Shown here piece after piece: positions 55,508-64,000 of a DNA stretch of 64,000 bases. The position numbers and the translations under genes are program-made. The notes below the pieces were generated by a model, which was not told the origin of the DNA, ran no database searches, and saw only the letters and a list, made by a program, of their open reading frames with translations. Source of the stretch: a bacterium (lineage in GTDB: Bacteria; UBA8248); the NCBI GenBank assembly GCA_965261085.1, contig OZ253442.1:992001-1056000 (forward strand). Direction: 5' to 3'. The stretch's first letter is position 1, and each line of letters begins with the position of its first letter.

Positions 55508-56791
55508 TTAGGCCGGAATAGAGGTCATTCCGCCCATGTAGGAGCGCAGCGCTTCGGGTATTATGACGGAGCCATCCGCGCGCTGGAAGTTCTCTAAAAT
55601 CGCCACAAACGTCCGCCCCACCGCGAGGCCTGAGCCGTTCAGGGTGTGGAGGAATTCAGGCTTGGCGCCTGCTCCGGGGCGGAAGCGGATTCCGGCGCGC
55701 CTGGCCTGGAAATCCTCGAAATTGCTGCACGAGGAGATTTCCCGATAAGTGTTCTGAGACGGTACCCAGACCTCGATGTCGTACGTCTTGGCGGCGGAGA
55801 AACCCAGATCTCCCGCGCACAGCGTGACGACGCGGAAGTGGAGCCCCAGGCGCTTTAAGACCTCCTCGGCGTCGACGGTGAGGCTCTCTAATTCCTCATA
55901 ACTCGTCTCGGGGCGGCTGAATTTCACGAGTTCGACCTTGTTGAACTGGTGCTGGCGGATGAGGCCGCGCGTATCCTGGCCGTAGGAGCCGGCCTCACTC
56001 CTGAAGCAAGGGGTATAGGCCGTGTATTTTAGCGGCAAATCCTCGCCGCCCAGAATTTCCTCCCGGTGGATGTTCGTGACGGGCACCTCGGCGGTGGGGA
56101 TCAAATAGAACTTTCCGTCATCGACGCGAAAGAGGTCTTCCTCGAATTTGGGCAACTGGCCCGTGCCCGTCATGGCCTCGGGGTTCACCATGAACGGAGG
56201 AAGCCACTCGGTGTAGCCGTGTTCATTCGTATGGAGGTCGAGCATGAAGTTGATGAGGGCGCGCTCGATACGCGCCCCCGCGCCCCGGTACAGCGCAAAG
56301 CGCGAGCCGGCTATCTTGACTGCGCGCTTCATGTCCAGAATGTTCAGGGCTTCGCCCAACTCATCATGCGCTTTGGGCTCGAAATCAAACGCTGGTTTCT
56401 CGCCCCACACCCTCACGAGGGCATTGTCCTCGGCACTTTGGCCGTCGGGGGTGGTCTCATGTGGCGCGTTTGGGAGTTCGAGGAGAAAATCGTTTTGTTC
56501 TTGTACGAGTCCGGCCAGCTCTCCCTCCATGGATTTGGCCTCGGTCGTCAGGCGTTGGTTTTCGGCCAGGAACGCCTGCACCTCGTCCTCAGGCGCCTTG
56601 TTGCGCTTGAGTTCTCCGATTTTCTTGCTGCGCTTCCTCACATCGGCCACCCGGCTCTCGACCTGGTGGGTCAAATCCCGCCTGCGGGCGTCGATTTCCA
56701 GTATCCCGGAGAGGTCCCAATCGCCACCCCTTCGGGCGAGCGCGCGCGCCACCGCTTCGGGGTCGTTTCTGATGAGGCGAATGTCAAACAA
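55508..56791 (-). CDS. serS: Serine--tRNA ligase
   Basis: [30 protein letters not shown]. Confidence 0.98.
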
Positions 56792-57940: not shown

Positions 57941-58243
57941 TGTTACTCCAGTATGACGAGTATCCGTCCCGATTATTTAGGCGCAGAGACCCTATCGGAT
58001 TCAATCAAACAAGTAAAACCTGTTCACATCTTAGGGATGTCAACTCTTAGAGACAGGGTATTCTGGCTCTATGTGCGGGAATCCACTCGCAAAGAAAAAT
58101 GGTGTTTTAACATTACTCTGGAAACCGATTCGTGAGAGAGATATAATTTCTCGGGTTTGCGTTTTTGGATTTTGACTGTACGGATGTTGTTCCACAAAAG
58201 TAGTCAGGAAAGGTCCTTTAGCCGCCGGATCAGGAAGTGTGAA

Positions 58244-59524
58244 ATGCGCTTAAAATTCATGGTGTTAGTCGTTTCAGTGTTCTTCCTCGCTCTCCCGGCT
58301 GTTTCCCAGAAGACATCAAAAGGCTCCTTCTTCCCCTCCATTGAAGCTGCGGAAAAAAGCGAGATTACCGGTAAATGGAAACATTGGCGGGAATTCGTAA
58401 ATGAGCACTTTAACTATCCTTTGCCTCCCATGGGTGAAGCGCCGAAATCATACAAAGGTGCTGAGCGTTCTTTGTTGCCGGAGAGTTGCGGGAGTTGCCA
58501 TTCCGATCAGTACAATCAGTGGAAAACCACACTTCACGCCAAGGCGATGAGTCCGGGCATATACGGGCAACTCGTCGATATGTGGGAAACGAATCCCGAG
58601 GAAGCACAAAGCTGTAATGAGTGCCATGCGCCTCTGGCGGAACAGCAAAAGCGCGCGAGGCTGGGCGCGGGTCCTTTTGCGAACTGGCAAAAAAACCCGG
58701 TTCACGATCGAAAGCTGGAGATGCACGGATTGGCCTGCGCCGCATGCCATGTGCGCAATTGGCGCGTGCATGGTCCACCGAAAAAGGAGACTCCCGAAGG
58801 CGTGGATGACACGACAAGAAAGGGCCCACACGCAGGTGTGGAGCGCACGCCTTTTTTTAGCCGCGCGGAATTTTGTATGGGTTGTCACCAGCATACCTAT
58901 CCCGGGCCGAACGGGAAATCGATTCAGAATACCTACAACGAGTGGAAAGACTCACTTTGGGGCAAAGAGGATGTTGCCTGCCAGAGTTGCCATATGCCCG
59001 GTCGGGCCCATCTGTGGCGAGGCATACATGACAAGGATATGACGCAGGGTGCCGTGCAGATAGACGTCATGCTCGGAGAGGATGCGGCCGGAGAAATTGT
59101 CACGGCCCAGATTAAGCTCACGAACTCAGGGGCCGGGCATTATTTTCCCACTTATATTACGCCTTCCGTGGATGTCATCTCCGAACTTGAGGATAAAAAC
59201 GGGCGAATCATGCTGGGTACAAGGCAGATCAACGTGATTGAGCGAAAACTCTCCTCTGATTTCAGCCGCGAGATCTATGACACACGCATTCCCCCTCAAA
59301 AGTCCCTCACGTTTCGATACAGGAGGGGACGAGCCGAGGGTGCCGCGAGACTCAGGGTGCGCGTTCACGTGCGGCCCGATGCTTTTTACTACGATTTCTA
59401 TGTCGAGTTTCTCAAGAATTCGAACATTTCAAGATTGTCGCGCAAGCTCATCACACAGGCGCGAGACATTGCGGCGTCATCGAACTTTTATGTTTATGAC
59501 GAGAAATTTGAACTGAAAAACTAA
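58244..59524 (+). CDS. Multiheme c-type cytochrome (5 CxxCH), secreted
   Basis: CGSCH, CNECH, CAACH, CMGCH, CQSCH; signal peptide. Confidence 0.88.
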   Translation: MRLKFMVLVVSVFFLALPAVSQKTSKGSFFPSIEAAEKSEITGKWKHWREFVNEHFNYPLPPMGEAPKSYKGAERSLLPESCGSCHSDQYNQWKTTLHAKAMSPGIYGQLVDMWETNPEEAQSCNECHAPLAEQQKRARLGAGPFANWQKNPVHDRKLEMHGLACAACHVRNWRVHGPPKKETPEGVDDTTRKGPHAGVERTPFFSRAEFCMGCHQHTYPGPNGKSIQNTYNEWKDSLWGKEDVACQSCHMPGRAHLWRGIHDKDMTQGAVQIDVMLGEDAAGEIVTAQIKLTNSGAGHYFPTYITPSVDVISELEDKNGRIMLGTRQINVIERKLSSDFSREIYDTRIPPQKSLTFRYRRGRAEGAARLRVRVHVRPDAFYYDFYVEFLKNSNISRLSRKLITQARDIAASSNFYVYDEKFELKN

Positions 59525-59529
59525 GAAGC

Positions 59530-61848
59530 TTATTTGGAAGCGCTTTGTTCGTGAACCGCACGAATGACATCCTCCGGCGCGATAGGCAGCCTGTTGAGGT
59601 TCGAGTTGGCCGGGTCCCCGATGGCGTCTGCGATCGCGTTTACAATCGCGGGCGCCGCCGGAATGAGCGGCATTTCCCCCGCTCCTTTGGCCCCAAAGGG
59701 ACCTTCCACGTCGGGAAATTCCACGATCACGCTTTCGATTTCCGAAACATCCAAACTCGTGGGATTGAGTTGACTCTCGAAATCCGCATGTACGATAACG
59801 CCCCCTACATGGTGGATCTGTTCGGCCAGAGCCCAACCCAGTCCCTGAACGATTCCGCCCTCTATCTGTCCGTTTAAGGTGAGGGGGTTCATGGCGAAAC
59901 CCACATCCTGCGCGCTGGTGATTCTCAGTACCCTGGTTTCTCCCGTTTCGGTGTCGACTTCGACCTCGGCGATTTGGGTGGCAAATTCGGGCCCGGGTCT
60001 GGATGGCTCCGGGTGGCCGCGCACATTGTCCGTACGATGGGGAGGATTCTCCCCGCGGTAAGAACCGCGACCGGTCACGGGACCGTCGCCTTTCCATACG
60101 GCCGAATACGCCACTTCGGCGAACGCGATGGCGCGCGAAGGCGCCGCGCGCATGAATATGTTTCCAGCGCCGATGTCCAGGTCCTCCGGGGAGGATTCGA
60201 GCATGCGCGCCGCTTGGCGAAGCATTTGCTCGCGAGCGTCTTCCGCCGCCATGCGCACCGCGTGCGCCATGTTGTATGTTGTTCGGCTGCCCGCAGTGAT
60301 GGCGTCGAAGGGCGTGGTTTCGGTATCAGCGATGCGGACGCTCACCTTTTGGACCTCGGCTCCGAGAACCTCCGCCGCTACCTGCGCCATCAAGGTGGCC
60401 GCGCCCGTACCCAAATCAGAACATCCGGCGAGCACAGCCAAGCCACCATCCTCGTTGACCTTCACCACGGCGCCCGACGCCCCTCCGCCGGTGGGATAGC
60501 GCGCGCAGCCGATGCCCATCCCGCGCTTGATTCTGCAGTCCTGATTTTCTTTCTTCTGTTGTCCCCAGCCCGCCTTTTCGCCCGCGCGCTCAAGCGTTTC
60601 CTTGATGCTTACGCTCTGGAGAATCGTGCCCGCGGGGTCCTCATCGTTTTCGTCCATCGCGTTGAGTAGGCGAAAGGCGAGCGGGTCCATTCCTAATTCC
60701 GAAGCGACGCGGTCGGTATGCCGCTCGCAGGCGAAAGCGACCTGGGCCACGCCCAGACCCCGGTAGGAACCGCTGGGGGGAAGGTTCGTATATACGAGTA
60801 GGCCATCGACCCTGACATTGGGAATTTTGTATGGTCCCGTACTGGTGTAGCAGGACTTTCCAAGCACCATTGGTCCCGTCATACAATAGGCGCCGTTGTT
60901 CGATGTGATTTGTACGTGGCGAGCGATGATTTTTCCTTCCCGTGTCACGCCTGTGCGATAGCGCATACGGTATGCGTGCCTCGGGTTTCCGGTGATGGTT
61001 TCCTCCTCCCGATTAAGAGTCAGTTGAACGGGCCGGTTCGACTTTCTGCTCAAAAGAACGGCCAAGGCTTCCAGCAGATGTTGGGATTTACCACCGAAAG
61101 CGCCTCCCACATGGGTGCTCACGACACGTAGTTTATTCATGGGAAGTTCGAGTATTTCCGAGGCAATGGCGCGCACCACAAAAGCCGCCTGGGTGGGTGA
61201 GTAGACTATCGTGCTGTCCTCGGGTCCGGGCTCCGCGAGCATGGCGCGGGGTTCGAGATAATTCTGGTGAACGCGCGGCGTTTCGTATTCGTCCTCGAAC
61301 ACGAAGTCGGCACGCGCGAGCGCATCTTCGATGGGATCACCCGATCGAATGAAAATGTCGGTTGCCACGTTTCCGTAGCGGACGATACCCGGAAACGATG
61401 CGTAATCATCCAGGGAGTCATGGAGGAGGGGAGCGTCGTCTCTCAGGGCGTCGTCTGTCGTGAATACGGCGGGGAGCACTTTATAGTCTACATGAATTTT
61501 CTCGAGAGCGGCTTGAGCGGCTTCAGGGGTTTCGGCGGCCACGGCGGCCACGCGCTCGCCGACGTAAAGCACTTTGTCGATGGCGAGCAGCGGTTCATCG
61601 CGCACGAGCCTGCCGTGGCGGAGGCCTGAGAAATCCTCCGCCGTGACGACGGCGTGTACTCCAGGTATTTTCAAAGCGTCGGTGGTGTCGATTTTTTTGA
61701 TTTCGGCATGAGGATGAGGACTCAAGAGCAATTTCGCGGTGAGGCAGCCAGGCCTTCTCAAGTCATCACCAAAATCGGCGAACCCGGCAACCTTCTCTGC
61801 GGAGTCAAGCCTCGGTATGGATTTGCCAAGAACTTGATAGTCAGACAT
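59530..61848 (-). CDS. Xanthine dehydrogenase family molybdopterin-binding subunit
   Basis: GGAFGGK, RH, SYRGLG, GQIEGG, GPFGAKGAGE. Confidence 0.92.
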   Translation of the reverse strand: MSDYQVLGKSIPRLDSAEKVAGFADFGDDLRRPGCLTAKLLLSPHPHAEIKKIDTTDALKIPGVHAVVTAEDFSGLRHGRLVRDEPLLAIDKVLYVGERVAAVAAETPEAAQAALEKIHVDYKVLPAVFTTDDALRDDAPLLHDSLDDYASFPGIVRYGNVATDIFIRSGDPIEDALARADFVFEDEYETPRVHQNYLEPRAMLAEPGPEDSTIVYSPTQAAFVVRAIASEILELPMNKLRVVSTHVGGAFGGKSQHLLEALAVLLSRKSNRPVQLTLNREEETITGNPRHAYRMRYRTGVTREGKIIARHVQITSNNGAYCMTGPMVLGKSCYTSTGPYKIPNVRVDGLLVYTNLPPSGSYRGLGVAQVAFACERHTDRVASELGMDPLAFRLLNAMDENDEDPAGTILQSVSIKETLERAGEKAGWGQQKKENQDCRIKRGMGIGCARYPTGGGASGAVVKVNEDGGLAVLAGCSDLGTGAATLMAQVAAEVLGAEVQKVSVRIADTETTPFDAITAGSRTTYNMAHAVRMAAEDAREQMLRQAARMLESSPEDLDIGAGNIFMRAAPSRAIAFAEVAYSAVWKGDGPVTGRGSYRGENPPHRTDNVRGHPEPSRPGPEFATQIAEVEVDTETGETRVLRITSAQDVGFAMNPLTLNGQIEGGIVQGLGWALAEQIHHVGGVIVHADFESQLNPTSLDVSEIESVIVEFPDVEGPFGAKGAGEMPLIPAAPAIVNAIADAIGDPANSNLNRLPIAPEDVIRAVHEQSASK

Positions 61849-61924: not shown

Positions 61925-62668
61925 TTATCTTACTTTTAGCTTTTCGAAAAAGGTGCGAATTCGCCTGGCGTTCGCGCCGATGTCACCTACGCCCATACGG
62001 GATTTCGAGCGGATGTCGAGGCGCGTCATCCCGTTATTCGACGTGATCCGGATGACGATGTCGTCGATGAAGCCGTACCAAAAAGTAGTGTCGTAGGCCT
62101 CGATGCGCCCTTCGGTGGGCTTTGATGACACTACATGCCAGCCCATGGCGCGTGCGGCGGCCAAAGCGCGTTTAAAAATTTCCTCTTTTGGATCTCGGGA
62201 AATGAGTGGCTTGATATCCGGATACATTTTTTTCTGGAGCCGAGCGATGCGTATGCCTTCATAAGAGGGCGGGTTTTTCGCCCCTTTTCTGAGCGGGAGA
62301 ACGGTTTGAAAGGCAGGCGGATTCTGGGTGTCTGTCGTGATGTCGTGAATCTTGGGCACCCGTCTCGAGATTTGCATGTGTGCGTGAAGAAAGCCCGCTA
62401 CGGTGAAGCCTAATGCGATGCCGAGGGCGGCGGCCGAAGTCTTGAACTTCGAAGCGTCGCGCAGGGCGAACAGGCCTCCCGCCATGGAGACGGCCACGGA
62501 GATCAACGCGATGATGGATGCGGCCTTGAAAATCCGAAATCCCGCGCTGAAATGCCATAAGTCCCAGCGATGACCCAGCCCTGACGCCACGGCGGCCAGC
62601 GCGCAAGCGCTCGATATGAACAAGCCCAGATAGGAGATGGATGAGAGCGCGTGAGATTTTTTATCCAC
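61925..62668 (-). CDS. DUF1499 domain membrane protein
   Basis: PKIHDITTD, GFIDDIVIR, RSKSRMGVGDIGANARRI. Confidence 0.87.
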   Translation of the reverse strand: MDKKSHALSSISYLGLFISSACALAAVASGLGHRWDLWHFSAGFRIFKAASIIALISVAVSMAGGLFALRDASKFKTSAAALGIALGFTVAGFLHAHMQISRRVPKIHDITTDTQNPPAFQTVLPLRKGAKNPPSYEGIRIARLQKKMYPDIKPLISRDPKEEIFKRALAAARAMGWHVVSSKPTEGRIEAYDTTFWYGFIDDIVIRITSNNGMTRLDIRSKSRMGVGDIGANARRIRTFFEKLKVR

Positions 62669-63260
62669 GAATTTTCTTTTTTAACCTCTGAATGGCCGCT
62701 TTCAGCTCCTTCGGGCCTTTGGGGTTTTGCTCTACGTGCCCATAGGCGTAGTTGATCGAATTAGCGAAGTTTCTGTAAGCCGCCGCCGCGATGATGTCGA
62801 CGATGTTCTCCTCGCTGAAGCCGGCGCGCCTCAGATGCTCGATATCCGTTTTTTTCATTCGATGGGGCGCATGGGTGATCTTCTCCGCATAGGCAAGCAT
62901 GGCGCGGTCCGCGGGGTCAAGGATTGCAGCGCGCTTCGGGTTGTCCAGCACCTCGGCTACTTCAACGATGGAGGCATCATCGCATGCGTCACGGAACAAC
63001 TGCCCGTGGTTCATCGCTCAACCGTATCACCCGCCGTGAGCCGCCACATAAAAGGCGAGCAACTCCGCCCGTCTCGTGCCGAGGCTCGAGCCGTCATGGA
63101 CTGCGTGTCGTAGCGTTTCGCGCCCGGCCAGAACTCCAGGCCTTCTCCCCATTTCAAGAAACATCTTGGGAATCGGTTTCTTCGTCTTGCGCAGGTCCTC
63201 GATGATTTTTTTTGTTGCTCCCTCCGCGGCATCCGGAGAAATAGGTTGAATCCAACTCAT
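62661..63260 (-). CDS. AhpD/CMD-like peroxidase-related selenoprotein with UxxU motif (Sec78, Sec81), 199 aa
   Basis: GGC GGG TGA TAC GGT TGA GCG ATG AAC CAC joins ORFs 63027..63317 and 62661..63014 in one frame; GAGGAG SD before ATG 63260. Confidence 0.82.
62990..63008 (-). promoter_or_regulatory. Candidate bacterial SECIS hairpin
   Basis: CACGG-GCAGTTGTT-CCGTG starts 9 nt after the second TGA; GU in the loop region. Confidence 0.6.
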
Positions 63261-63426
63261 GGCGTCCTCCTCTGATGATGGGGGGAAGAGGTTCTCAATC
63301 ATAGAAGAAATGCGCAAGGGAGGTGTTCCGCATTTTTATGTATCATTCCCATGAATAAGCCAATCCTCATCGGACAAACTCTGATGCGACACATGGCGCC
63401 GCATATGCCACATGGGCCATTCGGCT

Positions 63427-64000
63427 TTACGGGTCCACGCAAACGCACCGAAAACTAAAAAGGAGGTGCTTGGCCTTTGGGTCCCGGCCATGTCGAGCGG
63501 CCGCCCGCGTAATGCCCGGCTGATCGTCCCAAGAACCGCCCCCTTTCATCGTGGCTTTGGATTTAGAAAACGGGGTGGATGTCCATTCAAAGACATTGCC
63601 CGCCATGTCGAGCACGCCAAACGGACTTTTACCTTTGGGGTATGCGCCCACGGGTGTTGTAGACTGCACCTTGTAGCCATAGTTCAGGCGTTCAGGCTCG
63701 AAGGTGTTGCCCCATGGAAAATATCTGGCAACGACGCCACGGGCCGCTTTTTCCCATTCCGCCTCTGTGGGCAGCCGATACCGCGCCGGAGATTTGCCGT
63801 TCCGCCAGGCGCAGTGGGCCTGCGCGTCTGATTGGCTTATGAGCACGACGGGATGATTCGCTAGACCTTTCGGGAATGTCGGCCGACCGTCTTTGTTTTT
63901 CCCCCAAAGATAGCGACGCACGGACTCATAGGAATGAACGAGATAGCCTTGATGTTTATAATTTTCGGGCGAGATGAAAGGAGCGCGGTGGCCGCTCGCC
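63427..64000 (-). CDS. Formylglycine-generating enzyme (SUMF1) family domain protein, 5' end outside the window
   Basis: HPVV, RLPTEAEWEKAARG, DMAGNVFEW, GGSW, FRC. Confidence 0.88.
   Translation of the reverse strand, partial: ASGHRAPFISPENYKHQGYLVHSYESVRRYLWGKNKDGRPTFPKGLANHPVVLISQSDAQAHCAWRNGKSPARYRLPTEAEWEKAARGVVARYFPWGNTFEPERLNYGYKVQSTTPVGAYPKGKSPFGVLDMAGNVFEWTSTPFSKSKATMKGGGSWDDQPGITRAAARHGRDPKAKHLLFSFRCVCVDP

What the first reader, a model, noticed from the sequence alone, without database searches (positions are those of the whole stretch)
62661..63260. Hidden double-selenocysteine (UxxU) AhpD-like oxidoreductase
Seen: two ORF-track fragments form one frame broken only by TGA at 63029-63027 and 63020-63018, giving RAELLAFYVAAHGG-U-YG-U-AMNH. 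Both TGAs fall at the two Cys positions of the AhpD/CMD E..CxxC..H motif, and a hairpin with a GU-containing loop starts 9 nt after the second. Known: bacterial AhpD-like selenoproteins are typically CxxU, while UxxU diselenide motifs are rare and best known from SelL. Inference: a diselenide peroxidase-like enzyme in which one SECIS may serve two UGA codons three codons apart. Its stop overlaps the start of the DUF1499 gene, and standard gene callers would split it.
Basis: partly seen in the sequence, partly recalled or inferred. Interest (0 to 1): 0.9.

Follow-up and report, generated by a model that had tools for sequence, protein, structure and literature searches.

The report
Double-selenocysteine AhpD-like redox enzyme gene
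This is a real gene in marine Nitrospinota bacteria for a small antioxidant-type enzyme whose two active-site cysteines both appear to be replaced by selenocysteine, a rare arrangement that gene finders cut into pieces and that offers a natural test of how one RNA signal can recode two nearby stop codons.

Summary
Window 62661-63260 (-) is one 199-codon frame broken only by TGA at 63029-63027 and 63020-63018, giving HGG-U-YG-U-AMNHG.

- **Family:** the protein passes NCBIfam TIGR01926 (AhpD-like, peroxidase-related). It models confidently as an AhpD fold, and both TGAs align with the CxxC of solved relatives.
- **Sec machinery:** the genome has selA, selB, selD and one tRNA-Sec. No tRNA^ReC-like tRNA was found. 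TGA is its commonest true stop.
- **Conservation:** the double TGA is kept in 24 of 51 Nitrospinota genomes (three genera, down to 51-52% identity). It forms one clade next to a CxxU paralogue.
- **Selection:** dN/dS is about 0.13 upstream and 0.18 downstream of the TGAs.
- **SECIS:** a hairpin lies 16 nt after TGA2 and 25 nt after TGA1. Its 3' arm holds the only two codons in the gene with no synonymous variation. The CxxU paralogue uses a different hairpin 24 nt after its UGA, which the UxxU genes cannot form.

Public gene calls hold only the 117-118 aa tail. The reviews I read list this family as CxxU with one Sec. UxxU is known in other bacterial families, so this is a new variant of a known kind. 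Sec insertion, the diselenide and single-SECIS use remain inferred.

The parts
62661..63260 (-). Coding sequence of the 199-residue AhpD-like (TIGR01926) protein, stop codon included, read through two in-frame TGA codons
   Evidence: NCBIfam TIGR01926 scores 95.4 bits against a cut-off of 81.8. Full-length orthologues in 24 genomes. dN/dS 0.13 upstream and 0.18 downstream of the TGAs.
63027..63029 (-). TGA1, codon 78: proposed selenocysteine at the first position of the CxxC-type motif. The sister paralogue has Cys (TGY) here.
   Evidence: TGA in 24 of 24 orthologues. Aligned with the first Cys of CxxC in 6K40 and 3C1L and in alignment A2.
63018..63020 (-). TGA2, codon 81: proposed selenocysteine at the second position of the motif. 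This is the position that is already Sec in the CxxU paralogues.
   Evidence: TGA in 24 of 24 UxxU and 28 of 28 CxxU genes. Aligned with the second Cys of CxxC.
62990..63008 (-). Proposed SECIS apical hairpin: 7 pairs, one bulged U, loop AGUU. The loop lies 16 nt after TGA2 and 25 nt after TGA1.
   Evidence: Folds. 95% of stem cells paired against 26-50% when slid. Its 3' arm codons Phe90 TTC and Arg91 CGT are the only zero-entropy codon columns of 67. It meets the published bSECIS criteria in 19 of 24 with flanks but only 1 of 24 as a bare 19-mer.
63265..63270 (-). GGAGGA Shine-Dalgarno-like sequence, 4 nt upstream of the ATG
   Evidence: Read directly. Not tested further.
61925..62668 (-). 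Downstream DUF1499 gene (247 aa, hydrophobic N-terminal part). Its predicted GTG start overlaps the AhpD-like stop by 8 nt.
   Evidence: Pfam PF07386, 86.8 bits. The same overlapping arrangement in 20 of 24 UxxU loci and 0 of 8 CxxU loci.
63427..63999 (-). Upstream FGE-sulfatase (SUMF1-like) gene, cut by the window end, 166 nt before the AhpD-like start
   Evidence: Pfam PF03781, 108.2 bits. Found upstream in 9 of 24 UxxU loci, two of them as partial matches.

Best explanation
The locus encodes a cytoplasmic, all-helical AhpD-like thiol/selenol oxidoreductase of the TIGR01926 'peroxidase-related' subfamily. Both redox residues of the E-x11-C-x-x-C-x3-H active site are selenocysteine (E66, U78, U81, H85). 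Translation reads through both UGA codons by the normal bacterial route, in which SelB-GTP-Sec-tRNASec is recruited by an mRNA hairpin just downstream. One hairpin (63008-62990) is proposed to serve both codons in two successive SelB deliveries, with its loop 25 nt from UGA1 and 16 nt from UGA2. The form arose once within Nitrospinota, from a CxxU selenoprotein paralogue that is still present in the same genome. The change was a TGY-to-TGA substitution at the first Cys, together with remodelling of the SECIS so that its loop sits about 8 nt closer to the motif. By analogy with AhpD, U81 would be the attacking residue and U78 the resolving one, so the enzyme would cycle between a diselenol and an intramolecular diselenide while reducing a peroxide or an oxidised peroxiredoxin-type partner. 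Shown here: one conserved frame, the position of the TGAs on the CxxC, the Sec machinery, purifying selection on both sides, RNA-level constraint on the hairpin, and a single origin. Inferred: that both UGAs are read as Sec, that a single SECIS is used, the diselenide chemistry, the substrate, and the assignment of attacking and resolving roles (the last is recalled from work on M. tuberculosis AhpD, not taken from a call).
For: Frame and motif. Family: TIGR01926 at 95.4 bits against a cut-off of 81.8. PDB sequence hits 6K40 (E 2.5e-15) and 3C1L align their CxxC with U78/U81. The AF2 model has pLDDT 95.2, with U78 capping helix 79-92. The best Foldseek hit is 6K40, TM 0.76/0.81. C78, C81 and H85 are invariant in alignment A2. 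Cys/Cys occupies the two sites in 87 of 130 alignable representatives. Machinery: selB 384 bits, selA 579 bits, selD 336 bits with its own in-frame TGA, tRNA-Sec 75.9 bits. ARAGORN finds one tRNA-SeC(UCA) and one ordinary tRNA-Cys, and all 12 sub-threshold tRNA-Sec model hits are ordinary tRNAs. TGA is a real stop here: 979 of 2,182 long ORFs end in it, and 7 of the 24 UxxU genes (6 of 23, plus L060) themselves end in TGA. Conservation: two TGAs at codons 78/81 in 24 of 51 phylum genomes (19 of 23 in the window's genus, 1 of 1 and 4 of 5 in two others), down to 51-52% identity. Selection: median dN/dS 0.132 upstream and 0.177 downstream across 171 and 170 genus pairs. Met83 just after TGA2 is Val or Ile in 5 of 24, so the C-terminal part cannot be a separately started gene in those. 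Hairpin: synonymous entropy is zero only at Phe90 TTC and Arg91 CGT among 67 conserved codon columns. CGT makes up 11.8% of Arg codons genome-wide, and the other seven conserved Arg columns use 3-5 codons each. The segment differs from the rest of the gene at Mann-Whitney p=0.002. Codon 92 varies D/V/A/G but keeps its first base G, which pairs in the stem. The loop has G in its first two positions and lies 16 and 25 nt from the UGAs, inside the published 16-37 nt range. The paralogue's SECIS is a different hairpin with its loop at 24 nt (23 of 28 pass), and the UxxU genes cannot form it (0 of 24). Single origin: the UxxU clade has 100/99 support, and UxxU plus CxxU together 100/98, with a CxxC protein outside. 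RNA-library contigs from two samples of one study span both TGAs with no differences.
Against: There is no direct evidence of selenium in the protein or of full-length product. The hairpin is no more stable than shuffled sequence (z +0.91 and +0.79; 164 and 151 of 200 shuffles fold as well). The stem shows no compensatory double changes and does not beat column shuffles, so the structural support rests on frozen synonymous sites, which overlap a conserved NHG..FR peptide. As a bare 19-mer the hairpin is -6.1 to -6.7 kcal/mol in 22 of 24 genes (-10.0 in L044, -3.1 in L046), and it fails the -7.5 criterion in 23 of 24. In L046 the stem has a C-A mismatch. In E. coli the minimal SECIS sits 11 nt from the UGA (review passage). 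Other SECIS of this genome have loops 17-24 nt from their UGA, so 16 and 25 each lie 1 nt outside that small sample. The RNA contigs are low depth (3.9 and 4.7) and could derive from DNA in the library. A diselenide has a much lower redox potential than a disulfide (recalled), which makes its recycling by ordinary thiol reductants uncertain.
Confidence: 0.8

Rival explanations
1. Only UGA2 is selenocysteine. UGA1 is read as cysteine or another residue, by a SelC*-type tRNA^ReC or by near-cognate read-through, so the mature protein is effectively CxxU like its paralogue.
For: A 2026 study of UXXU [NiFeSe] hydrogenases reports tRNA^ReC enriched in UXXU genomes and warns that one or both UGAs may be read as Cys (passages read). 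UGA1 lies 25 nt from the loop, 1 nt beyond the 17-24 nt seen for this genome's other SECIS.
Against: No such tRNA was found. ARAGORN gives one tRNA-SeC and one standard 75-nt tRNA-Cys(GCA) among 52 tRNAs. Only one Rfam tRNA-Sec hit passes threshold, and the other 12 are ordinary Leu, Ser, Tyr, Trp, Arg, Gly and Asp tRNAs. The paralogue in the same genome keeps TGY for Cys. A UGA read only by leaky near-cognate decoding should be costly, yet it is invariant in 24 of 24 across three genera. The SECIS loop has moved to 25 nt from UGA1, matching the paralogue's 24 nt.
Confidence: 0.08
2. Both UGAs are Sec, but decoding does not rest on one static hairpin. The Tyr-Gly codons between the UGAs (UACGG) and the His-Gly codons (CACGG) compete for the same 3' arm (CCGUG), so two alternative conformers, or an additional element, govern the two events.
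For: RNAalifold's consensus pairs columns 7-14 (UAYGGCUG) with columns 31-33 and 39-43. L046 has a double change keeping pair 9-41 (U-A), while the same sequence has a C-A mismatch in the simple hairpin. TAC and GGC between the UGAs are nearly invariant, at 22 of 23 and 21 of 23.
Against: When UGA1 is in the A site, the next dozen or so nucleotides lie inside the ribosome (general knowledge), so this pairing cannot exist at that moment. The support is one sequence. The consensus energy is weak: -6.57 kcal/mol with a covariation term of -0.38.
Confidence: 0.1
3. The frame is not one protein. It is a decayed or split gene in which TGA1 is a true stop and the 117-residue tail is translated on its own from ATG83, as gene callers annotate it.
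For: Public gene calls list only 117-118 aa C-terminal proteins (24 clusters). An ATG follows TGA2 by one codon in the window. One related genome (G010) carries an internally deleted remnant.
Against: Both TGAs are invariant, and neither is ever TAA or TAG in 24 genes. The two codons between them are conserved and in frame. Codon 83 is GTC, GTA, GTG or ATT in 5 of 24. The N-terminal part is under equally strong purifying selection. A split would delete both catalytic residues of a family in which they are the conserved core.
Confidence: 0.02

Closest known systems
AhpD-like 1 selenoproteins (COG2128/YciW, TIGR01926), CxxU form
   Same: Same subfamily by HMM, same fold, and the same position of the C-terminal Sec. 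This family is abundant in marine metagenomes: 299 GOS sequences are listed as CxxU. The window's own genome has a 46%-identical CxxU paralogue.
   Different: The first Cys is also TGA. The SECIS is a different hairpin with its loop 16 nt rather than 24 nt after the shared UGA. The gene is coupled to a DUF1499 gene, which the paralogue is not. The review tables list the family as CxxU with one Sec.
DR1765, the AhpD-like protein of Deinococcus radiodurans (PDB 6K40)
   Same: Closest solved relative: sequence E 2.5e-15, Foldseek TM 0.76/0.81, and its CxxC aligns with U78/U81. A review reports that the deletion mutant is H2O2-sensitive and that complementation depends on the CxxC cysteines (passage read in PMC8945050).
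   Different: It is a Cys/Cys enzyme at 27% identity. No selenium is involved.
M. tuberculosis AhpD (PDB 1KNC, 1GU9)
   Same: Same superfamily fold, with a weak Foldseek match (TM about 0.5). AhpD passes electrons from a lipoyl protein to AhpC and has peroxidase activity (review passage).
   Different: Only 13-14% identity, and a different subfamily. The residue roles (Glu118, Cys130, Cys133, His137) are recalled, not tested here.
SelL (eukaryotic UxxU, diselenide-forming selenoprotein)
   Same: Same Sec-x-x-Sec spacing. A diselenide was demonstrated for SelL; I saw this paper only as a reference title, and the details are recalled.
   Different: SelL is a thioredoxin-fold, Prx-like protein of aquatic eukaryotes with a 3'-UTR SECIS. 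This protein is an all-helical AhpD fold with an in-frame bacterial SECIS. The resemblance is analogous, not homologous.
Other prokaryotic UxxU selenoproteins: Prx-like thiol:disulfide oxidoreductase, metal-binding/MerA-like NF041115, FmdB TIGR02605, Group 4 [NiFeSe] hydrogenases
   Same: Two UGAs three codons apart, replacing a CxxC. The hydrogenase paper also proposes that a single downstream SECIS decodes both, and a CxxU-to-UxxU transition.
   Different: Different protein families and chemistry (metal ligands in the hydrogenase). In that paper the SECIS core is described as conserved between the CXXU and UXXU types, whereas here it differs between the clades.

Membership tests
AhpD-like / TIGR01926 peroxidase-related subfamily (CMD superfamily) | Score above the curated family cut-off | tested here: met
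   TIGR01926 scores 95.4 bits against a cut-off of 81.8, residues 2-177 over profile positions 1-175 of 178, with U read as C.
AhpD-like / TIGR01926 peroxidase-related subfamily (CMD superfamily) | Pfam CMD domain (PF02627) above the gathering score | tested here: inconclusive
   22.8 bits against a gathering score of 23.0, E 9.5e-05. This is just below threshold.
AhpD-like / TIGR01926 peroxidase-related subfamily (CMD superfamily) | All-helical AhpD fold | tested here: met
   AF2 model with pLDDT 95.2 and ten helices. Foldseek hits 6K40, 2PRR, 2OYO and 3C1L at probability 1.00 and TM 0.66-0.81.
AhpD-like / TIGR01926 peroxidase-related subfamily (CMD superfamily) | CxxC-type redox pair at a helix N-terminus, followed by His at +4 and preceded by Glu at -12 | tested here: met
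   U78 and U81 align with the CxxC of 6K40 and 3C1L. C78, C81 and H85 are invariant in A2, and E66 lies in the conserved RREEL stretch. U78 is the N-cap of helix 79-92.
AhpD-like / TIGR01926 peroxidase-related subfamily (CMD superfamily) | Hydroperoxide or peroxiredoxin reductase activity | not testable with these tools
   This needs an enzyme assay. Most members of the subfamily are themselves uncharacterised.
Bacterial selenoprotein (SelB/SECIS-dependent UGA recoding) | In-frame UGA aligned with Cys in homologues | tested here: met
   Both positions are Cys/Cys in 87 of 130 representatives. The first is Cys in 28 of 28 paralogues.
Bacterial selenoprotein (SelB/SECIS-dependent UGA recoding) | selA, selB, selC and selD present in the genome | tested here: met
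   All four score above their curated cut-offs. The tRNA-Sec was confirmed by ARAGORN.
Bacterial selenoprotein (SelB/SECIS-dependent UGA recoding) | Downstream hairpin meeting the bSECIS consensus: loop 3-9 nt, stem 4-16 bp, G in the first two loop positions, 16-37 nt from the UGA, MFE -7.5 kcal/mol or lower | tested here: inconclusive
   The criteria come from the PMC13188914 Fig. 2A legend. Loop, stem, G and both distances (16 and 25 nt) are met. The energy criterion is met in 19 of 24 with a 27-nt window but in only 1 of 24 for the bare 19-mer. bSECISearch itself was not available.
Bacterial selenoprotein (SelB/SECIS-dependent UGA recoding) | Coding constraint continues past the UGA | tested here: met
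   Median dN/dS downstream is 0.177, or 0.165 when the 20 codons after TGA2 are excluded.
Bacterial selenoprotein (SelB/SECIS-dependent UGA recoding) | Selenium demonstrated in the polypeptide | not testable with these tools
   This needs 75Se labelling or mass spectrometry.
SelL-type UxxU diselenide proteins | Two Sec separated by two residues | tested here: met
   U78-Y-G-U81.
SelL-type UxxU diselenide proteins | Thioredoxin-fold, Prx-like domain | tested here: not met
   The fold is all-helical AhpD, so this is not a SelL family member. The shared feature is the motif only.
SelL-type UxxU diselenide proteins | Intramolecular diselenide bond | not testable with these tools
   This needs purified protein and redox or MS analysis.

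The most novel reading that the evidence does not exclude
A natural Sec-x-x-Sec (diselenide/diselenol) AhpD-type enzyme whose two UGAs, 9 nt apart, are each decoded by SelB from one and the same hairpin. The hairpin was repositioned during evolution so that the two codons straddle the organism's usual UGA-to-loop distance (16 and 25 nt against 17-24). Together with its CxxU sister gene in the same cell, which has a differently placed SECIS, it would be a ready-made natural experiment on how much spacing bacterial SelB tolerates. It would also show what a second selenium adds to a redox couple in aerobic, peroxide-exposed nitrite oxidisers.
Probability: 0.5. Interest if true: 0.7.

Novelty: new variant of a known kind. 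Interest (0 to 1): 0.58.

Why it matters
AhpD-like proteins are among the most abundant marine selenoproteins, but they are catalogued as CxxU with a single Sec. A clade with both redox residues as Sec extends the short list of bacterial UxxU proteins to a new fold.

Its value lies in the comparison with its sister gene. The same genomes carry a CxxU sister gene with a differently placed SECIS. That makes two open questions directly testable with simple reporters. Can one bacterial SECIS recode two UGAs three codons apart? And how strict is UGA-SECIS spacing outside E. coli?

There is also a practical point. In every public gene call found here the gene is annotated only as a 117-118 aa "hypothetical protein". 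Selenoproteome counts for Nitrospinota will miss it unless double read-through is allowed.

Tried and rejected
- **Rfam:** the scan of 62400-63500 at E up to 10 gave only three chance-level hits and no SECIS family match.
- **Thermodynamics:** folding energy does not single out the hairpin.
- **Covariation:** counts on the hairpin give no double changes and do not exceed column shuffles. Covariation is therefore not used as support.
- **Lower stem in the window's own sequence** (GCGAUG/CAUGC): by eye on alignment A1 it is not conserved outside a subset of the genus, so I dropped it.
- **Second 2-TGA AhpD-like hit in G025**: this is a CFYU form whose second TGA is its stop codon.
- **Genome-wide scan for other in-frame TGA pairs 0-5 codons apart:** 456 candidates. 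The top ones look like a stop followed by the next gene's start, and no second convincing double-Sec gene was seen. The scoring was crude; the AhpD-like gene itself ranked 16th.
- **Odd 89-nt tRNA (CCA anticodon)** as a possible UGA decoder: rejected on anticodon and cloverleaf.
- **The search for related loci with the mixed alignment:** it had no usable conserved stretch. The single-protein scan reaches close relatives only, and one of its six patterns spans the motif with Cys codons, so absence of UxxU outside Nitrospinota is not shown.
- **Promoter and terminator scan:** at chance level.
- **Uncovered parts of the locus in the RNA contigs:** these say nothing either way.
Full report
**Observation.** On the minus strand, window 63260-62661 is a single frame of 199 sense codons plus TAA. 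It is interrupted only by TGA at 63029-63027 (codon 78) and 63020-63018 (codon 81), giving ...RRAELLAFYVAAHGG-U-YG-U-AMNHGQLFR.... Under table 11 it falls into a 96-aa ORF and a 117-aa ORF. A GGAGGA lies 4 nt before the ATG. The hairpin CACGGGC-AGUU-GUUCCGUG (63008-62990) starts 9 nt after TGA2. The next gene, DUF1499 (61925-62668; Pfam 86.8 bits), has a predicted GTG start that overlaps the stop by 8 nt. An FGE-sulfatase gene lies 166 nt upstream and runs off the window.

**What the protein is.** With U read as C, the protein passes NCBIfam's curated cut-off for TIGR01926, "peroxidase-related enzyme" (95.4 against 81.8 bits). It just misses Pfam CMD (22.8 against 23.0). Its nearest solved relatives by sequence are the AhpD-like proteins 6K40 (E 2.5e-15), 3C1L, 2OYO, 2PRR and 2PFX. 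In the two printed alignments (6K40 and 3C1L), the two Cys of CxxC align with residues 78 and 81. An AlphaFold2 model built from a 22-row alignment has mean pLDDT 95.2 and is all-helical. Residue 78 caps helix 79-92 and residue 81 sits in its first turn. Foldseek's best match is 6K40 (TM 0.76/0.81), followed by the same structural-genomics AhpD-like entries and the debrominase Bmp8. In alignment A2, C78, C81 and H85 are invariant across UxxU, CxxU and CxxC relatives, and E66 lies in the conserved RREEL stretch. Of the 151 representatives examined (the two leftover proteins plus 149 from the 1.8-billion-protein search), 130 could be aligned across the motif. Of those, 87 are Cys/Cys at the two positions. 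The rest are mixed: S/C 9, C/G 6, C/S 5, T/C 4 and others.

**Can this organism make selenoproteins, and is TGA otherwise a stop?** The 4.27-Mb genome holds selB (384 bits), selA (579 bits; the two lie about 1 kb apart), selD (336 bits, itself with one in-frame TGA) and one tRNA-Sec (75.9 bits). All are above their curated cut-offs. ARAGORN finds 52 tRNAs, including one tRNA-SeC(UCA) with the long acceptor stem and one ordinary 75-nt tRNA-Cys(GCA). The 12 sub-threshold hits of the tRNA-Sec model are all ordinary tRNAs. I therefore found no tRNA^ReC-type UGA-to-Cys decoder, a rival raised for UXXU hydrogenases in PMC13582414 (passages read). TGA ends 979 of 2,182 long ORFs, and 7 of the 24 UxxU genes themselves end in TGA. 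TGA is therefore not reassigned genome-wide.

**Comparative evidence.**
- **Occurrence.** A six-frame search with stops read through found full-length matches with two in-frame TGAs in 24 of the 51 genomes held for the phylum. That is 19 of 23 in the window's genus, 1 of 1 in a second genus and 4 of 5 in a third, down to 51-52% identity. All 24 read HGG-U-YG-U-A[M/V/I]NHG with identical geometry.
- **Paralogue clade.** A paralogue clade has 28 genes in 27 genomes, including the window's own genome at C1:3374803-3375375. It is 44-52% identical and reads GG-C-YG-U-T.
- **Selection.** Among the 19 genus members, median dN/dS is 0.132 for codons 1-77 and 0.177 after TGA2. It is 0.165 when the 20 codons after TGA2 are left out.
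- **No separate start.** Codon 83, the ATG that gene callers use, is Val or Ile (GTC, GTA, GTG, ATT) in 5 of 24, so the tail cannot be a separately started gene there.
- **Phylogeny.** A maximum-likelihood tree of 39 rows puts the 24 UxxU genes in one clade (100/99). It groups them with the 8 CxxU rows used (100/98), with a 44%-identical CxxC protein outside. The root is at the midpoint, so the direction CxxU to UxxU is inferred, not proven. The 20 further CxxU genes fetched later were not in that tree.
- **Public annotation.** Public protein collections hold only the 117-118 aa C-terminal fragments (24 clusters; two are named "hypothetical protein [Nitrospinae bacterium]") and no full-length call.
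- **Beyond the phylum.** A pattern-based scan of one genome per species returned 53 loci. Thirteen are UxxU, all of them the same Nitrospinota or unnamed MAG records. Six are CxxU from "delta proteobacterium" MAGs, and 34 are distant non-Sec forms. This scan reaches close relatives only.

**The recoding signal.**
- **What does not support the hairpin.** Thermodynamics do not single it out (z +0.91 and +0.79). The stem shows no compensatory double changes. Its pairs are invariant or change on one side only (C to U opposite G; G to A opposite U), and the counts do not exceed column shuffles.
- **What does support it.** Of 67 codon columns with a conserved amino acid across the 31 UxxU and CxxU genes, only Phe90 (TTC) and Arg91 (CGT) have zero synonymous variation. 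CGT is a minor Arg codon here (11.8%), and the other seven conserved Arg columns each use 3-5 codons. The TGA-to-hairpin segment has lower synonymous entropy than the rest of the gene (0.59 against 1.16; Mann-Whitney p=0.002; related sequences, so indicative only). Codon 92 varies D/V/A/G but always starts with the G that closes the stem.
- **Against the published model.** I applied the bSECIS consensus (loop 3-9 nt, stem 4-16 bp, G in the first two loop positions, 16-37 nt from the UGA, MFE -7.5 or lower; PMC13188914 Fig. 2A legend) by script. The UxxU hairpin has loop AGUU in the window's genus, and GGUC or GUC in the other two genera. Its loop lies 16 nt from TGA2 and 25 nt from TGA1. It passes all criteria for both codons in 19 of 24 with a 27-nt window. 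As a bare 19-mer it is only -6.1 to -6.7 kcal/mol in 22 of 24 (-10.0 in L044, -3.1 in L046) and passes in 1 of 24, so the energy criterion is borderline.
- **The paralogues differ.** At the same position the CxxU paralogues form only a weak 5-bp stem with a 9-nt loop (0 of 28 pass). Their SECIS is a different hairpin, GCC..GCUUUC-[CGUGNU]-GAAAGC..GGC, with its loop 24 nt after the UGA (23 of 28 pass). It shows a G-C to A-U change between genera. The UxxU genes cannot form it (0 of 24).
- **Spacing in this genome.** Other SECIS here have loops 17 nt (selD), 17 nt, 21 nt (a GGUC loop) and 24 nt from their UGA. The UxxU hairpin thus places the new upstream UGA at the paralogue's distance (25 against 24) while keeping the old one at the lower limit (16).
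- **An unresolved alternative.** RNAalifold proposes that the UACGG between the two UGAs pairs with the same CCGUG arm. One sequence (L046) keeps that pair by a double change. I could not resolve whether this matters.

**Expression.** Six RNA-library runs hold part of the stretch. I laid four of them. Contigs from two samples of one study (62826-63110 and 62866-63079) span both TGAs with no differences, and contigs from two further studies cover neighbouring parts. Depths are 2-5, and DNA carry-over cannot be excluded. This is a weak hint of transcription, with no sign of polymorphism at the TGAs.

**Context.** The DUF1499 gene follows with the same 8-nt overlap in 20 of 24 UxxU loci (all 19 of the genus plus one other genus) and in 0 of 8 CxxU loci. 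An FGE-sulfatase gene lies upstream in 9 of 24, two of them partial matches. Further downstream on the same strand is a molybdenum hydroxylase large subunit. A multihaem cytochrome lies on the other strand. None of these points to a specific partner. Promoter and terminator scans were at chance level.

**Mechanism proposed.** Shown: the gene is translated through both UGAs under selection, in an organism with complete Sec machinery, with the UGAs on the two redox positions of an AhpD-type active site, and with RNA-level constraint on an adjacent hairpin. Inferred: both are Sec (about 0.8). One hairpin recruits SelB twice (about 0.6). The enzyme cycles between a diselenol and a diselenide while reducing a peroxide or an oxidised peroxiredoxin-type partner. 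The closest characterised relative, DR1765, protects against H2O2 in a CxxC-dependent way (review passage in PMC8945050).

**Novelty.** These are the papers I searched and what I saw of each.
- **PMC13188914 (2026 review):** passages and a table. [quoted passage not shown] It gives UxxU only for a Prx-like oxidoreductase, a metal-binding/MerA-like protein and an FmdB-family protein.
- **PMC9312934 (2022 review):** agrees with that listing.
- **PMC2398784 (GOS):** lists AhpD-like 1 and 2 as CxxU, and UxxU only in Prx-like 2.
- **PMC13582414 (2026):** describes UXXU in Group 4 hydrogenases and floats the single-SECIS idea.
- **PMC13326102 (BSepDB):** says it handles proteins with two or more Sec and ranks some Nitrospinota among selenoprotein-rich genomes. 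I could not see the database content or any supplements, so an existing UxxU AhpD-like entry there cannot be excluded.
- **Searches run:** "UxxU + selenoprotein" (6 papers), "AhpD-like + selenocysteine" (9), "Nitrospina + selenocysteine" (5) and "Nitrospinota + selenoprotein" (1). None describes this form in the passages I read.
- **NCBIfam release 20:** no dedicated model fired; the best hit is the generic TIGR01926.

**Verdict.** This is a real, conserved and apparently undescribed UxxU variant of a known selenoprotein family, with an informative SECIS difference from its CxxU sister gene. It is a new variant of a known kind, of moderate to good interest.

Noticed in passing
G000:C1:1155312-1155400 (minus strand; outside the window): An 89-nt tRNA with a CCA (Trp) anticodon, a long variable arm and mismatches in the acceptor and anticodon stems. 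It sits in a 42% GC patch of a 58.7% GC genome and scores 37.7 bits on the tRNA-Sec model. A normal 76-nt tRNA-Trp exists elsewhere in the genome. It could be a mobile-element or pseudo-tRNA.
   Followed up: partly
G000:C1:3459-4421 (minus strand; outside the window): selD is itself a selenoprotein gene (GG-U-GSKLG), with a hairpin whose GGA loop lies 17 nt after the UGA.
   Followed up: partly
G000:C1:3374803-3375375, 2333575-2334087, 4208344-4208862 (outside the window): Three more AhpD-family genes with one in-frame TGA at the second motif position (CYGU, CFYU, CEYU). The last has a GGUC-loop hairpin. The genome therefore has at least four AhpD-family selenoprotein genes.
   Followed up: partly
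L135 (G010:C4:126700-127500); a second copy at G010:C5:835962-836216: One genome of the same genus has no intact UxxU gene. Instead it carries an in-frame deletion remnant that joins residue ~11 to residue ~117, so the whole active site is lost. The remnant seems to be present twice.
   Followed up: partly
L049, L051, L053 (downstream of the CxxU paralogue): The CxxU paralogue is followed by an ORF with an HxHxDH-type motif (metallo-beta-lactamase-like by eye), not by DUF1499. I ran no family search on it.
   Followed up: no
window 63026-63017 pairing with 63002-63000 and 62994-62990: An alternative pairing: the UACGG(C/U)UG lying between and including the two TGAs pairs with the same CCGUG arm used by the proposed SECIS. 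One orthologue (L046) keeps a pair by a double change. Its role, if any, is unexplained.
   Followed up: partly
window 55508-56791 (-), 58157-59524 (+), 59530-61848 (-): Seryl-tRNA synthetase (the enzyme that first charges tRNA-Sec; probably a coincidence), a multihaem c-type cytochrome, and a molybdenum hydroxylase (xanthine dehydrogenase family) large subunit lie just downstream of the locus.
   Followed up: no
L074-L077, L094, L111 ('delta proteobacterium' MAG records): Distant relatives (31-34% identity) outside the phylum carry C-[HR]-[YD]-U-T, that is CxxU, at the same positions.
   Followed up: no
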